From contig JAEOSU010000081.1 of the NCBI GenBank assembly GCA_016840165.1, positions 1 through 53,751 on the forward strand: a DNA stretch of 53,751 nucleotides, given 5' to 3'. The DNA is from Promethearchaeota archaeon. GTDB taxonomy: Archaea; Asgardarchaeota; Lokiarchaeia; Sigyniarchaeales; SOKP01. This document shows, one piece after another, positions 5,884 through 53,751 of the stretch (the first letter of the stretch is position 1; every line of letters starts with the position of its first letter). The notes below the pieces were generated by a model. The model made no database searches. It saw only the letters and a list, made by a program, of their open reading frames with translations, and was not told the origin of the DNA. The position numbers were made by a program, and so were the translations under genes.

Positions 5884-6327
5884 TTAGATTTTTAATTCCA
5901 TTAAGTAAGCGCTTTCATTATGTCTATAATAATCCTCTATTCTCTCTATTATTTCAAATCCAAATTTTTTATACAATTTTATCGCTTTTAAATTGGTTGT
6001 TTTCACATTTAATATTATTTTATTAATTTCTGTATGGTTGTTTACGATATTTAGTGTTTTTTGCATTAATAGGGAACCATAACCTTTATTTTGATATTTC
6101 TTTCTGATAATAAAGTTAATAAGATTGAATCTATGGTCATCATCCTTAATTAAGATTACATAACCGATTATATCTTCTGCTTTTTTAGAAACTACTATCT
6201 TTAAAAACAAGCTATTAGAATTAATTAAATTTTGTAATAACTTTCTCGAAAAGGAATCTGATTTAAAAATCCTTTTTTCAATTTTATAAATTTTGTTTAG
6301 ATCGCTTAGTGTCACTTTTTTAATCAA
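5884..6327 (-). CDS. rimI: GNAT N-acetyltransferase (RimI/Ard1-like)
   Basis: YQNKGYGSLL acetyl-CoA motif, NLKAIKLYKKFGF, and IEDYY...AYLM. Confidence 0.85.
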   Translation of the reverse strand: MIKKVTLSDLNKIYKIEKRIFKSDSFSRKLLQNLINSNSLFLKIVVSKKAEDIIGYVILIKDDDHRFNLINFIIRKKYQNKGYGSLLMQKTLNIVNNHTEINKIILNVKTTNLKAIKLYKKFGFEIIERIEDYYRHNESAYLMELKI

Positions 6328-7471
6328 AATTATATCCCTTCTCTTCCATAAAAACGTTTAAAGGCACTTTTTCGGTTGTTTGTGCATACTTCTCATCTAT
6401 AAATGGTGTTTTCTCAACAATGTATGCTTTAAGTGTATATTTTTGTAGTAAATTTGTGATTTCCTCGCGTATCATATCCTTTATTGGCAATTTGATCATA
6501 TTATTTTCAAATTTTATTCTCTTTGAGGGATTTTTAATCATTTCACTCACAGTATCATAAAATTTTCTTAATTTTTCACCATTACCTTCGATCTGGGCAA
6601 ACCATAATAAACCTTCTTCTGTAATTATTTCATATGGCTTCTTAATTGATTTTGCTCTTCGTAAATATCTTTTGGATAATTGCCAGTAGTCTTTAGCAAT
6701 AATAGTACAAAAATGGATTTTAATAGATACTTTATCAACTATTTTATTTATAAGTTTAAGAGCAAATTCTCTACTATTTTCCACGGATGCTATTGTTCCT
6801 TTCTTTAATTTAAACCCCTTTTCTTTTAAGGAATCAGTATTGGTAACACACATTTCAAATTCGTTTAGATTGATAAAATCGGCTCCTATTCGGTCGAGAT
6901 AATATATAAATTTTTCAAGGTTATTGATGTAATCTCGAGAGGGAATTACAGGAACCTCAGCTCCCACTTTGAAGCCCTTTTCTAAAGCAGATTCAATAAT
7001 AGCCCATTTATCTTTGGGGGGATTAAATCTTATCTCATCCAAACCAGCATCACTTAATTTTTGAGCGATGGATGCATCAAAATTAAGTCCATTAGTATAA
7101 AGATGGATGTGGAATTTTTTTCCTTTCTTCTTCTTAACATACTTTATGTATGAGAGAGTTTTGTCTAAATTCGGTTCAAATAATGGGTCTCCTCCAGTAA
7201 TACTCATTCCTTTCGCATGAGTAAGATTAATCTCTTCAAGCAATTGCTCCTTGTTGTTAATTTGTATTTCATTTGCATAAGTGAATTTTTTATTTTTTCT
7301 TTCCTCAGAAATAGGGCAATACCATCGGCAATGATTAGGATTTTGACATATTCCATTTAGGAATAAAACAGTTTTAGCACCTTTAAGGCAGTATTTGCAT
7401 CCCATTGGGATTCCCTTATTCTTAATATAATATGTTTCCTCTTTCGATTGGCAAATTTTGGTTTTTTTCAT
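6320..7471 (-). CDS. radical SAM protein (COG2108-like)
   Basis: GCKYCLKGAK, CQNPNHCRWYCPIS, ITGGDP, FHIHLYTNG, GLDEIRF, and NLNEFE. Confidence 0.85.
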   Translation of the reverse strand: MKKTKICQSKEETYYIKNKGIPMGCKYCLKGAKTVLFLNGICQNPNHCRWYCPISEERKNKKFTYANEIQINNKEQLLEEINLTHAKGMSITGGDPLFEPNLDKTLSYIKYVKKKKGKKFHIHLYTNGLNFDASIAQKLSDAGLDEIRFNPPKDKWAIIESALEKGFKVGAEVPVIPSRDYINNLEKFIYYLDRIGADFINLNEFEMCVTNTDSLKEKGFKLKKGTIASVENSREFALKLINKIVDKVSIKIHFCTIIAKDYWQLSKRYLRRAKSIKKPYEIITEEGLLWFAQIEGNGEKLRKFYDTVSEMIKNPSKRIKFENNMIKLPIKDMIREEITNLLQKYTLKAYIVEKTPFIDEKYAQTTEKVPLNVFMEEKGYNFD

Positions 7472-10880: not shown

Positions 10881-10993
10881 ACTCTTACTTTAAACTTTAG
10901 TAATAAAAACTCCTCAGATTTTTGCTGATTAAAATGGTGAAACAGAAAAAGATTCAAAAAATTTATGAAATTAAAAAAACTTATTTGTTTAGA

Positions 10994-12466
10994 ATGAATG
11001 TGAATAAAATTGAAGAAAATATTTATGAAATTTCACCCTCAACATTAATGGCTCGTGTAGAGGGAACAATTAAGAAATTTCAGATGAAAGTTCCTGTTCA
11101 TATTTATGCTAATGAGTATATCTTAGAAAAAATTAAAAAAGACAGAACTCTTGATCAAATTTGTAATGTGGCATGCTTACCAGGGATTCAAAAGCATGCT
11201 ATAGCACTTTCAGACGCACATCAAGGATATGGTTTTTGTATCGGTGGTGTGGCAGGAACAGATGCTAATGAAGGTATGATTTCGCCTGGAGGTGTAGGCT
11301 ATGACATAAATTGCGGAGTTAGGTTGTTAAGGACAAACCTTTTTCTAGATGATATAAAACAAAAACTTCCTTCACTCCTCAATAGGATGTTTAAAAATAT
11401 TCCTTCAGGTTTAGGCTCAAAAGGAAAATTAGATATTAGCTATAGAGATTTGGATGAGGTTTTAGATACTGGTTTAAACTGGACACTAAAAAATGATTAT
11501 GCCATTGATCAGGACTTAAAGCATTGTGAAGAGAATGGATTTTTGAAAGATGCCAATTCAAAATTAATTTCTGATAAAGCTAAACAAAGAGCAATAAATC
11601 AACTTGGATCATTAGGTAGTGGAAATCACTTTTTAGAAATTCAGAGAGTGGATCAGATATTCAATAAGGATATTGCTAAAAAATTAGGTATTGTAGAAAA
11701 AGATCAAGTTACCACGATGGTCCATACGGGATCGCGTGCTTTAGGTCATCAAGTATGTTCAGATTCACTCAGAAATATCGAAAAGGCAATGAAAAAGTAC
11801 AATATTGAAGTTCCGGACAGAGAGTTAGCTTGTGTTCCAGCAAACACAAAAGAAGCTAAAGATTATTTAAGTCAAATGGCGTGTGCAGCAAATTTTGGAT
11901 TTTGCAATCGCCAATTAATAACTCACTGGTTACGAGAATCATTTCAACAAGAATACAATAAGACTATAGATGATATAGATTTTCACCTTATATATGGTGT
12001 TTGCCATAATATTTTAAAGATTGAAGAGCATGAGATTAATGGAAAAAAGATGTATTTGAATGTGCATAGAAAGGGTGCAACTAGAGCGTTTCCTCCCGGT
12101 CATTCTGAAATACCTAATGATTATAAAAATATTGGACAGCCAGTATTAATACCTGGAACTATGGGATCTGCCTCATATCTATGTGTAGGAAAACCAAAAG
12201 CTATGGATCTTTCTTTTGGTTCTACAGCGCATGGCTCAGGTCGAGTGATGTCAAGATCGAAGGCAACTAAAAAATATTGGGGCTCTAAAGTAAAGGATGA
12301 TCTTAGTAATAAAGGTATATTAGTAAAAGCAGCATCAATGAAAGTTATCGCTGAAGAAGCTCCTGGGGCTTATAAAGATATTGATCAGGTTGTTCAAGTA
12401 AGTCATGATCTTAATATTATTGAAAAAATAGTTAGATTAGTCCCTGTTGGAGTCGTTAAGGGATAA
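10994..12466 (+). CDS. rtcB: RNA-splicing ligase RtcB
   Basis: DAHQGYGF, GVGYDINCG, LGSLGSGNHFLE, HTGSR, HN, HRKGATRAF, HGSGR, and EEAPGAYK. Start probably at ATG 10994 (the ORF is open from 10922). Confidence 0.97.
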   Translation: MNVNKIEENIYEISPSTLMARVEGTIKKFQMKVPVHIYANEYILEKIKKDRTLDQICNVACLPGIQKHAIALSDAHQGYGFCIGGVAGTDANEGMISPGGVGYDINCGVRLLRTNLFLDDIKQKLPSLLNRMFKNIPSGLGSKGKLDISYRDLDEVLDTGLNWTLKNDYAIDQDLKHCEENGFLKDANSKLISDKAKQRAINQLGSLGSGNHFLEIQRVDQIFNKDIAKKLGIVEKDQVTTMVHTGSRALGHQVCSDSLRNIEKAMKKYNIEVPDRELACVPANTKEAKDYLSQMACAANFGFCNRQLITHWLRESFQQEYNKTIDDIDFHLIYGVCHNILKIEEHEINGKKMYLNVHRKGATRAFPPGHSEIPNDYKNIGQPVLIPGTMGSASYLCVGKPKAMDLSFGSTAHGSGRVMSRSKATKKYWGSKVKDDLSNKGILVKAASMKVIAEEAPGAYKDIDQVVQVSHDLNIIEKIVRLVPVGVVKG

Positions 12467-23377: not shown

Positions 23378-23381
23378 ATAG

Positions 23382-23497
23382 AGCCCCTGGGGGGAATTGA
23401 ACCCCCGACCGATTGATATCTCGTTGTTCTTTCAAATATAATTACGAATCAATCGCTTTCGGTGTTTAAAGTAACTATACCACTAAGCCACAGAGGC
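23382..23497 (-). tRNA. tRNA-Thr(CGU) with two BHB introns (D-arm, about 22/23, at 23458-23476; canonical 37/38 at 23418-23442)
   Basis: Acceptor GCCTCTG/CAGGGGC, discriminator T, and T-arm GGGGG-TTCAATT-CCCCC. Removing the 19-nt and 25-nt inserts gives a 72-nt cloverleaf. Confidence 0.88.
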
Positions 23498-52366: not shown

Positions 52367-52728
52367 GATAATCGTTTAATTTGATTATTTTTTATCATTA
52401 AATTGTGAATCTATTATATTAATCTTTATTGTTTTTTCCTAATTATTTTAAAACCAAAAATAAAGCAAATTAGTTTTTTCAAAATCGAAATTAGACAGAA
52501 AATAAAAAGTAAGATAAAATTGTATCCAGAACACACTCCCATTTTCTCATAACTAAAATTTATCTAATTATCTCCTTTTACAAAATCCTTAATACTCTAA
52601 GCCTGAATCCTATAATCCTCTTTCGATTGCCATACACTCGCGCTGTTGAGAATGGCGGGCTAAATAGGTCGCCCGGAAGCTTCCTACGTACACCCCCATC
52701 TCAGCAACCCCGTCTTTTACGGGTGCGC

Positions 52729-52899
52729 TCGTCTCTTCCCCATGGTTCGCGTCACCGCGCCCCACTCTTGTTATTTAACATGTTATTCATTTTAATTATG
52801 ATATTTTCTAAGAAGTTAGCGTCTGATAAACACAGGAAATCTTACTAACTTTATCAACTAAAATAGACCTCATTGATTATAACGTTTTGGGACAAGATT
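52729..52899 (-). other. expanded H98/ES39 region of 23S rRNA (about 170 nt, AU-rich core)
   Basis: Lies between the H94 3' strand (AGTCATCC, 52900-52907) and H99/H100. It is closed by a TCTTGTCCCA/TGGGGAAGA helix. Confidence 0.75.
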
Positions 52900-53077
52900 G
52901 GATGACTATTTTCAGGACCGGCTTCGTGCTTAGATGCTTTCAGCACTTATCCGTTAGCGCGTAGCTGCCCGGCATTGCCTTGTCAGACAACCGGTACACC
53001 AGAGGCGCCGGCAAAATGTTCCTCTCGTACTGATTTTCCCTTACCTTCAGTCATCCCACATACCTGGTAGATAGAAT

Positions 53078-53120
<43 letters not shown>

Positions 53121-53209
53121 TTAATGGGCGTACAGCCCCACCCTTGGCAGTTATGTGCGCTGCCAGGATAGGAAGAGCCGACATCGAGGAAGCAAGCCAC
53201 GAGGTCGAT

Positions 53210-53244
53210 TTATCCAATCTACACTTTATTATTGCTCCAGATTT
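53210..53244 (-). other. 35-nt BHB intron in 23S rRNA helix 89 loop
   Basis: rRNA sense reads GA-GTCC-CT^A-AATCT...AGATT-GGAT-AA^A-TC. Excision restores AAGAGTCCCTATCGAC. Confidence 0.85.
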
Positions 53245-53751
53245 AGGGACTCTTACTCGTGACAACTCTGTTACCCCCGGGGTAATTTTTCTATCACCTC
53301 AACAACCCACACGAGGTTTGTTAAGGATCGCTAGACCAGGCGTTAGCCTCAGGATTCCTTAGTGATCAGAATCCAGTCAGGCCAGCTTTTGCTCTTAAAC
53401 TCTACAGCGGATTCCTGACCCGCCTGAGCTGACCATTGGTTTCTCTAGATATTTTTTCTAGAGAGAGCCGCCCCAGCCAAACTGCCCACCTGCTGATGTT
53501 CGACATTTGTGATGCCGTTAGTGATTCCAGGAAAGAAAACCGGTGTTCCAATGATGCTCCCCATCCACCGAAATGGATGGATCTATGCTCCCGGCTACGC
53601 TCTGTATCTAGCCCAAAACCACAACAACAAGCTGCAGTAAAACTCCACGGGGTCTTCTCGTCCCACCAGGTATCTCCGGACCGTTCGCCGGAGTGTAATT
53701 TCAATCGTCAGAAGGCTGGGACAATAGGGAGAACGTTGGACCATTCATGCA

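What the first reader, a model, noticed from the sequence alone, without database searches (positions are those of the whole stretch)
53210..53244. 35-nt BHB mini-intron in 23S rRNA helix 89 next to the peptidyl-transferase centre
Seen: a textbook BHB with central helix GTCC/GGAT, 3-nt bulges CTA and AAA, inner helix AATCT/AGATT and outer GA/TC. Removal restores the conserved H89 loop at about E. coli 2477/2478. There is no homing endonuclease ORF. Established: archaeal rRNA introns are spliced by EndA and RtcB and are best known from Thermoproteota and DPANN. I do not know of this site being described in Asgard archaea.
Basis: partly seen in the sequence, partly recalled or inferred. Interest (0 to 1): 0.7.

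Follow-up and report, generated by a model that had tools for sequence, protein, structure and literature searches.

The report
Mini-intron in Asgard 23S helix 89
The only 23S ribosomal RNA gene of this Loki-type Asgard archaeon carries a 35-base protein-free intron, of the kind cut out by the tRNA-splicing enzyme, in the tip of helix 89 beside the ribosome's catalytic centre; at least 13 other Asgard genomes carry unrelated introns at exactly the same spot.

Summary
The 23S rRNA lies on the minus strand (52626-53751, cut by the contig end). It has a 35-nt insert at 53244-53210, between E. coli positions U2477 and A2478, in the 7-nt loop of helix 89.

The minimum-energy fold is a canonical bulge-helix-bulge (BHB) motif:
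- outer helix GA/UC
- central helix GUCC/GGAU
- 3-nt bulges CU|A and AA|A
- 6-bp inner helix

Cutting there gives GAGUCCCU|AUCGAC. The closest intron-less relatives have exactly this sequence, and every congener with the site assembled lacks the insert.

Pattern scans and a 400-genome Asgard survey found inserts of 30-339 nt at the same spot in 13 other genomes from at least 7 GTDB families, plus metagenome contigs. The intron's 3' end tracks the exon sequence: GUCC with GGAU/GGAC, GUUC with GAAC, GCUC with GAGU/GAGC. In nine aligned sequences 97.7% of cells pair, and 12 pairs show changes on both sides.

The genome encodes a two-subunit EndA and RtcB; the RtcB gene is in this window.

Verdict: this is a genuine ORF-less BHB intron, a new member of a known kind. 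Splicing itself has not been shown, because no RNA data were available. This scan had already flagged the same site in other Asgard genomes. I found no paper describing it.

The parts
52626..53751 (-). 3' part of the only 23S rRNA gene copy in the assembly (model positions 2066-2987); the 5' end is cut by the contig end
   Evidence: cmscan RF02540, 788.9 bits. BLAST of a congener's full 23S finds only C49:1-984 and this contig in the genome.
53245..53252 (-). 5' exon half of the BHB: outer helix G53252 A53251, central-helix strand GUCC (53250-53247), and the first two bulge bases C53246 U53245. The 5' splice site lies between 53245 and 53244.
   Evidence: Sequence; minimum-energy fold
53210..53244 (-). 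35-nt ORF-less BHB intron. It consists of bulge base A53244, inner helix 53243-53238 paired with 53221-53216, an AU-rich loop, central-helix strand GGAU (53215-53212), and bulge bases A53211 A53210.
   Evidence: Absent from all aligned relatives at exactly these borders. Single copy in the genome. BHB confirmed.
53207..53209 (-). 3' exon half of the BHB: third bulge base A53209 (= A2478) and outer helix U53208 C53207. The 3' splice site lies between 53210 and 53209.
   Evidence: Sequence; fold
10922..12466 (+). RtcB RNA ligase gene, the presumed exon-joining enzyme (trans-acting; the start codon is uncertain)
   Evidence: PF01139 full-length match, 556 bits, at 11156-12463; ORF

Best explanation
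The 35 nt are an archaeal bulge-helix-bulge (BHB) intron in the 23S rRNA gene.

Proposed mechanism:
- In the precursor, the helix 89 stem serves as the outer helix.
- The first four bases of the 7-nt H89 loop (GUCC) pair with the intron's 3' end (GGAU).
- The intron's own 6-bp hairpin forms the inner helix.
- This presents two 3-nt bulges four base pairs apart.
- The splicing endonuclease EndA, here a two-subunit alpha/beta type, cuts after the second base of each bulge.
- RtcB joins the exons to give the normal loop GUCCCUA. It probably also circularises the 35-mer.

The intron sits after the sixth base of a 7-nt hairpin loop. That is the same geometry as the canonical tRNA 37/38 intron, so the H89 tip acts as a mimic of the anticodon arm.

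What is shown: the motif, the exact borders, the empty-site alleles, the covariation and the enzyme genes.

What is inferred: cleavage, ligation and circularisation in the cell. The gain looks recent in this lineage, because all congeners with the site assembled lack it.
For: 1. The canonical hBHBh' is the minimum-energy fold. The chance frequency is about 2.6e-5.
2. Excision gives GAGUCCCU|AUCGAC. This is identical to the intron-less alleles of the closest relatives: syntenic JGI contigs L054-L056 and congener G261.
3. The other 13 congeners in which the site is assembled also lack the insert.
4. The same site carries inserts of 30-339 nt:
   - three GenBank Asgard MAGs
   - three distinct introns on nine metagenome contigs
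   - 13 other genomes among the 170 of 400 surveyed Asgard genomes that have the region
5. Across 13 distinct introns, 51 of 52 central-helix positions pair, and they track the exon variants. Only about 5e-5 of shuffles do as well.
6. On a 9-sequence alignment, 97.7% of cells are paired and 12 pairs change on both sides. Slid controls reach at most 46%, and 0 of 500 shuffles reach the observed paired fraction or covariation score.
7. The enzymes are encoded:
   - The EndA alpha-like gene on C14 is closest to the Aeropyrum pernix chain 3P1Z_B, and residues at the expected Tyr/His/Lys positions are kept.
   - A second paralogue on C4 lacks the His.
   - RtcB lies in the window.
8. This is the only 23S copy in a 99.7%-complete assembly, and the flanking rRNA is well conserved.
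9. ARAGORN finds only 13 tRNAs, 8 of them with introns. This fits the heavily interrupted tRNA genes reported for Asgard archaea (PMC11291895; bioRxiv 10.64898/2026.10.13.758758).
Against: - No RNA-level data were available: no spliced read and no circular intron.
- This exact intron sequence was seen only in this assembly. The scans may hide records of the same genome.
- The central helix has one G.U pair, and the inner helix is AU-rich.
- The 23S gene is incompletely assembled; about 1.2 kb in the middle is missing. A second, intron-less copy cannot be strictly excluded.
Confidence: 0.9

Rival explanations
1. EndA cuts at the BHB but the exons are not re-joined, so the mature 23S rRNA is fragmented at the H89 tip. 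This would resemble bacterial intervening sequences or the fragmented rRNAs of some eukaryotes.
For: The sequence evidence shows only that the cleavage motif is under selection. It does not show ligation.
Against: - RtcB is encoded.
- All characterised archaeal rRNA BHB introns are ligated (established knowledge; summarised in PMC4496867).
- The predicted ligated junction equals the sequence of the intron-less relatives. This is what selection for a restored loop would produce.
Confidence: 0.05
2. The 35 nt stay in the mature rRNA as a small lineage-specific expansion of helix 89.
For: Asgard 23S rRNAs do have unusual expansions, ES9 and ES39 (PMC7594248). The window has an ES39-type variable region.
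Against: - The H89 loop has a fixed length in the archaeal Rfam model and in all intron-less relatives.
- It lies in the conserved core beside the peptidyl-transferase centre.
- A retained hairpin would not need a 4-bp helix with the exon and two 3-nt bulges that covary across unrelated inserts.
- All congeners with the site assembled lack the insert.
Confidence: 0.03
3. The insert is an assembly artefact, or it sits in a dead rRNA gene copy.
For: - The gene lies at a contig end and the 23S is split over two contigs.
- The pattern scans also returned bacterial contigs with local tandem duplications in this region, which look like artefacts.
Against: - The insert does not duplicate neighbouring sequence and has no other copy in the genome.
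- It forms a perfect BHB.
- Independent assemblies show the same architecture at the same site.
- The flanking rRNA scores as intact, and no other copy of this region exists in the assembly.
Confidence: 0.02

Closest known systems
Short (<50 nt) hairpin-forming BHB introns in 16S rRNA genes of Thermoproteales (Jay & Inskeep 2015, PMC4496867)
   Same: ORF-less, under 50 nt, a simple hairpin plus a BHB at the exon junctions, patchy presence among close relatives, inserted in conserved functional rRNA regions, and presumed to be processed by EndA and RtcB.
   Different: Here the host gene is 23S, not 16S. The site is the H89 loop (2477/2478), and the lineage is a Loki-type Asgard archaeon rather than Thermoproteota. 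No neighbouring homing-endonuclease intron that could co-convert it is present in the assembled 3' part of the gene.
Classical 23S rRNA BHB introns of Desulfurococcales and Thermoproteales (e.g. Desulfurococcus mobilis, Pyrobaculum; my own knowledge; referred to in PMC4496867)
   Same: Same splicing motif and enzymes, and the same preference for domain IV/V functional sites of the 23S rRNA.
   Different: Those introns are usually hundreds of nt long and often encode LAGLIDADG homing endonucleases. This one is 35 nt. The 259-339-nt introns at the same Asgard site show no convincing sense-strand ORF.
Canonical tRNA intron at position 37/38 and the abundant tRNA introns of Asgard archaea (PMC11291895; bioRxiv 10.64898/2026.10.13.758758)
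   Same: - Identical local geometry: a 7-nt hairpin loop, the intron after the sixth loop base, the first four loop bases pairing with the intron's 3' end, and the stem acting as the outer helix.
- Similar length, about 30 nt.
- The same two-paralogue EndA background.
   Different: The host is an rRNA hairpin next to the peptidyl-transferase centre, not a tRNA. Neither paper deals with rRNA: the preprint does not contain the terms 'rRNA' or '23S', and the first paper mentions rRNA genes only for taxonomy.
Group I introns in archaeal LSU rRNA (Nawrocki et al. 2018, PMC6125680; sites 1923, 1931, 2500, 2593)
   Same: Located in domain IV/V of the LSU rRNA. Some occur in the same genes as BHB introns.
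   Different: Group I introns are self-splicing ribozymes of several hundred nt. The 35-nt insert cannot hold such a core, and it gives no Rfam hit other than the host rRNA.

Membership tests
Archaeal BHB (splicing-endonuclease) intron | [quoted passage not shown] | tested here: met
   GUCC/GGAU with bulges CUA and AAA. This is the minimum-energy fold.
Archaeal BHB (splicing-endonuclease) intron | Flanking helices h (exon-exon) and h' (intron-intron) | tested here: met
   The outer helix GA/UC is the closing pairs of H89 in the Rfam consensus and continues into the 8-bp H89 stem. The inner helix has 6 contiguous pairs.
Archaeal BHB (splicing-endonuclease) intron | Cutting inside the bulges restores the uninterrupted host RNA | tested here: met
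   The product GAGUCCCUAUCGAC equals the intron-less alleles in L054-L056 and G261. It differs by one base from the other congeners.
Archaeal BHB (splicing-endonuclease) intron | The motif is maintained by compensatory change across homologous or analogous introns | tested here: met
   The exon variants GUCC, GUUC and GCUC are matched by GGAU/GGAC, GAAC and GAGU/GAGC. 12 pairs change on both sides and 97.7% of cells are paired.
Archaeal BHB (splicing-endonuclease) intron | The host encodes EndA and an RNA ligase (RtcB) | tested here: met
   Two EndA-domain genes. One is closest to the A. pernix chain 3P1Z_B and keeps residues at the expected catalytic positions; the other lacks the His. RtcB scores 556 bits.
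Archaeal BHB (splicing-endonuclease) intron | The intron is absent from mature RNA, and a circular intron is released | not testable with these tools
   No RNA data for this organism could be reached. Exact-ORF look-ups found nothing.
Mobile rRNA intron with homing endonuclease | A LAGLIDADG (or other) endonuclease ORF inside the intron | tested here: not met
   35 nt cannot encode one. The 259-339-nt introns at the same site have no convincing sense-strand ORF: the longest are 64 aa in L098 and 54 aa in L101, and none of 45 aa or more in L100. These ORFs were not scanned against Pfam.
Group I intron | A P1-P9 ribozyme core, typically more than 200 nt | tested here: not met
   The insert is 35 nt. 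cmscan at gathering thresholds reports only the LSU rRNA.
rRNA expansion segment | Retained in mature rRNA, at a peripheral variable site | tested here: inconclusive
   Retention cannot be tested here. The site is a fixed-length core loop in the Rfam model and in all intron-less relatives, which argues against membership.

The most novel reading that the evidence does not exclude
The H89 loop may be a hot spot for repeated gain of ORF-less mini-introns in Asgard archaea, without any homing endonuclease.

The idea rests on the geometry: a 7-nt loop on a stable stem copies the anticodon arm. Short BHB hairpins could therefore persist, or even insert, wherever the splicing enzymes can act. One possible route is reversal of EndA/RtcB splicing followed by copying into DNA.

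The 23S intron would then be one product of a genome-wide burst of roughly 30-nt introns that also hits tRNA genes. According to unchecked notes of this scan, the burst also hits 5S rRNA and protein-coding genes of this same genome.
Probability: 0.3. Interest if true: 0.75.

Novelty: new member of a known kind. Interest (0 to 1): 0.5.

Why it matters
- **Annotation.** The intron interrupts the ribosome's catalytic domain in the sole 23S gene, so every ribosome of this organism would depend on tRNA-type splicing. It also makes rRNA annotation and alignment fail locally.
- **Biology.** Together with the other Asgard cases found here, it shows that one precise core site is used again and again by unrelated ORF-less introns, each adapted to its own exon sequence. 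This is a clean natural experiment on how protein-spliced introns arise and persist in the closest prokaryotic relatives of eukaryotes.
- **Testable question.** It also makes it possible to ask whether a hairpin that mimics the anticodon arm is enough to define an intron site.

Tried and rejected
- **Rfam search of the own genome.** The search with RF02540 returned no match although the window holds one. I treated this as a limitation of that tool on cut genes and used BLAST instead.
- **Multi-source cmscan.** This call failed.
- **Exact-product look-ups.** Two spurious ORFs over the rRNA gave nothing. A homology search with one of them did lead to the intron-less syntenic relatives.
- **A 44-nt, 84% match to the intron in congener G022.** It lies at the 3' end of an exosome Rrp42-like gene, runs across the exon-intron border, and has no counterpart in the own genome. 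I rejected it as a chance match in AT-rich DNA.
- **Other copies of the intron in the own genome.** None found; the best match is 15 nt, E = 0.15.
- **The roughly 30-nt insert in the next hairpin downstream in several congeners.** I tested it as a canonical BHB. No register gives both the standard product and adjacent helices, so it is left unresolved.
- **Bacterial hits of the two pattern scans.** These are local tandem duplications, not introns.
- **Homing-endonuclease ORFs in the long H89 introns.** None convincing.
- **Literature.** Four searches found no paper on BHB introns in Asgard rRNA or on an intron at this H89 site. Tocchini-Valentini 2011 (PMC3064391) is not held.

Full report
**What is there**

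Rfam's archaeal LSU model matches window 52626-53751 on the minus strand (789 bits, model positions 2066-2987, cut by the contig end). The window is a whole contig (C64) of a 3.6-Mb assembly with 31.6% G+C and 99.7% completeness.

In the terminal loop of helix 89 the model expects 2 nt, and the window has 37. Read on the minus strand, the sequence is ...GUAAGAGUCCCU, then 35 nt, then AUCGACCUCGUG....

An E. coli 23S gene was used to check the numbering. It runs +2 relative to the standard landmarks A2451 and U2504-U2506, which I know from memory. After that correction the insert lies between U2477 and A2478.

**The motif**

RNAfold's minimum-energy structure of 53190-53270(-) is a canonical hBHBh':
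- Outer helix GA/UC. These are the two closing pairs of H89 in the Rfam consensus structure.
- Central helix GUCC/GGAU.
- Bulges CU|A and AA|A.
- A 6-bp inner helix and an AU-rich loop.

In 1,000,000 shuffles of the 35 nt with the exons fixed, a 4/4 central helix plus at least 6 adjacent inner pairs arose at a frequency of 2.6e-5.

The H89 loop is a 7-nt loop, and the intron follows its sixth base. The first four loop bases pair with the intron's 3' end. This is the geometry of the canonical tRNA 37/38 intron. That comparison rests on my own knowledge of the tRNA motif, which is also described in bioRxiv 10.64898/2026.10.13.758758.

**Empty sites**

All 14 congeners in which this stretch is assembled lack the insert, as do same-order relatives. 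Most congeners read GAGUUCCUAUCGAC.

The closest relatives were reached in two ways. One route was a spurious ORF over the rRNA, which led to three syntenic JGI contigs, L054-L056. The other was the genome survey, which gave G261 with 97% identity over 241 nt. Both sets read GAGUCCCUAUCGAC, which is exactly the predicted ligated product.

The intron is single-copy in its genome, and this is the only copy of this part of the 23S gene in the assembly.

**The same site elsewhere**

- *Species-representative genomes.* A pattern scan for inserts of 11-41 nt in front of UCGA in H89 returned three Asgard MAGs, labelled Thorarchaeota or Promethearchaeota, with inserts of 30, 32 and 36 nt. It also returned three bacterial contigs that are tandem duplications.
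- *Metagenome contigs.* The same pattern gave a 39-nt intron on one contig and two variants of a 33-nt intron on eight contigs, i.e. nine contigs in all.
- *Asgard survey.* A BLAST survey of 400 Asgard genomes found the region in 170. Many alignments broke at query position 119/120, which is the splice site. Fetching those places showed inserts of 32-339 nt at the same position in 13 other genomes from at least 7 GTDB families. Two of these genomes belong to the window's own family.

In all 18 sequences examined the cut sites are the same. The central helix is 4/4 in 17 of them and 3/4 in one, and it follows the exon:

| Exon strand | Intron 3' strand |
|---|---|
| GUCC | GGAU or GGAC |
| GUUC | GAAC |
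| GCUC | GAGU or GAGC |

Across 13 distinct introns, 51 of 52 central-helix positions pair. Shuffling the partners reaches this in about 5e-5 of trials, although related lineages are not independent.

On a MAFFT alignment of nine short introns, the BHB plus the H89 stem has 97.7% of cells paired and 12 pairs with changes on both sides. Slid controls reach at most 46%. None of 500 shuffles reaches the observed paired fraction or covariation score.

The inner helices are unrelated in sequence. The longer introns (259-339 nt) show no convincing sense-strand ORF.

**Machinery and background**

- Two genes carry the EndA catalytic domain.
  - The first is closest to the Aeropyrum pernix chain 3P1Z_B and keeps residues at the expected Tyr/His/Lys positions.
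  - The second lacks the His.
- RtcB is encoded in this window.
- ARAGORN finds only 13 tRNAs, 8 of them with introns. This is consistent with heavily interrupted tRNA genes (PMC11291895).

**Identity of the organism**

- One survey genome has the exact length (2,808,651 bp) of Atabeyarchaeia-1 from PMC11291895.

The host is therefore a Loki-type Asgard archaeon.

**Interpretation**

The best reading (0.9) is a genuine ORF-less BHB intron that EndA removes and RtcB seals. It was probably gained recently in this lineage, since its congeners lack it.

The rivals are:
- cleavage without ligation (0.05)
- retention as an expansion segment (0.03)
- artefact or dead gene copy (0.02)

The covariation between exon and intron across unrelated inserts is hard to explain unless the motif is being used. 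Even so, no RNA data were available, so splicing itself remains an inference.

**Comparison and novelty**

The closest described relatives are the hairpin introns under 50 nt in Thermoproteales 16S genes (PMC4496867) and the classical crenarchaeal 23S introns. Four literature searches found nothing on BHB introns in Asgard rRNA or on this H89 site. The Asgard expansion-segment paper only mentions removing known intronic regions.

This scan had already flagged H89 introns in other Asgard genomes (e1-5394700, e1-5483751, e1-5519005). I re-derived that pattern independently here.

I therefore rate it a new member of a known kind, of moderate interest. The recurring use of one anticodon-arm-like core loop by unrelated mini-introns is the part that deserves follow-up.

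Noticed in passing
window 52772-52893 (minus strand): AU-rich, highly variable stretch of about 120 nt near the 3' end of the 23S, at the ES39/H98 position. It does not align even among congeners, where it is 122-147 nt or more.
   Followed up: partly
G000 C49:1-984 and window 52626-53751: The 23S gene is split over two contigs, and about 1.2 kb (roughly positions 987-2189 of a congener's gene) is missing from the assembly. The first 986 nt show no large insert.
   Followed up: partly
L073 (G017), L070 (G021), L071 (G009), L076 (G008); equivalent to window ~53155-53160: Several congeners carry an insert of about 30 nt in the loop of the next hairpin downstream (H91 by my reckoning); G024 (L016) has 55 nt there. 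The window's genome and G023 lack it. No register gives both a canonical BHB and the standard product. It could be a relaxed intron or a small expansion. The G024 insert contains a string resembling an H89 loop.
   Followed up: partly
L104 (G044, complete genome of 2,808,651 bp): A 32-nt insert between GGCUUGCUA and CCUCGAUG, at about E. coli 2498/2499, in a genome whose length equals Atabeyarchaeia-1 of PMC11291895. Its motif was not analysed.
   Followed up: no
L091 (G131) and L092 (G125), about 1678-1880 in rRNA orientation: Besides a ~70-nt H89 intron, these 23S genes have an insert of about 200 nt splitting the conserved GGGG/(U)AACAG string next to A2451. Two introns therefore lie within about 30 nt of the catalytic centre.
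   Followed up: no
L037 (JARRLT010000216.1) 6289-6406: About 115 extra nt relative to the window's 23S, at the equivalent of window ~53086. Possibly another intron.
   Followed up: no
whole genome G000; window 23381-23497: ARAGORN detects only 13 tRNA genes in a 99.7%-complete genome, 8 of them with introns. Most tRNA genes are probably hidden by multiple or non-canonical introns.
   Followed up: partly
L021 (G022:C36) 1501-1543: A 44-nt, 84% match to the exon-intron junction plus the intron lies at the 3' end of an exosome Rrp42-like gene of a congener. I judged it a chance match in AT-rich DNA, though the per-genome E-value was 3e-5.
   Followed up: partly
L010 (G007), L095 (G207), L096 (G066), L099 (G065): In several relatives the contig ends within a few bases of the H89 site, and what remains is intron-less sequence. 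These may be assembly breaks, possibly from mixed intron-plus and intron-minus populations.
   Followed up: no
L034, L035, L039, L043-L045, L049, L050, L052, L053: The bacterial and other non-Asgard hits of the H89 pattern scans are local tandem duplications of the rRNA itself. They look like assembly artefacts.
   Followed up: partly
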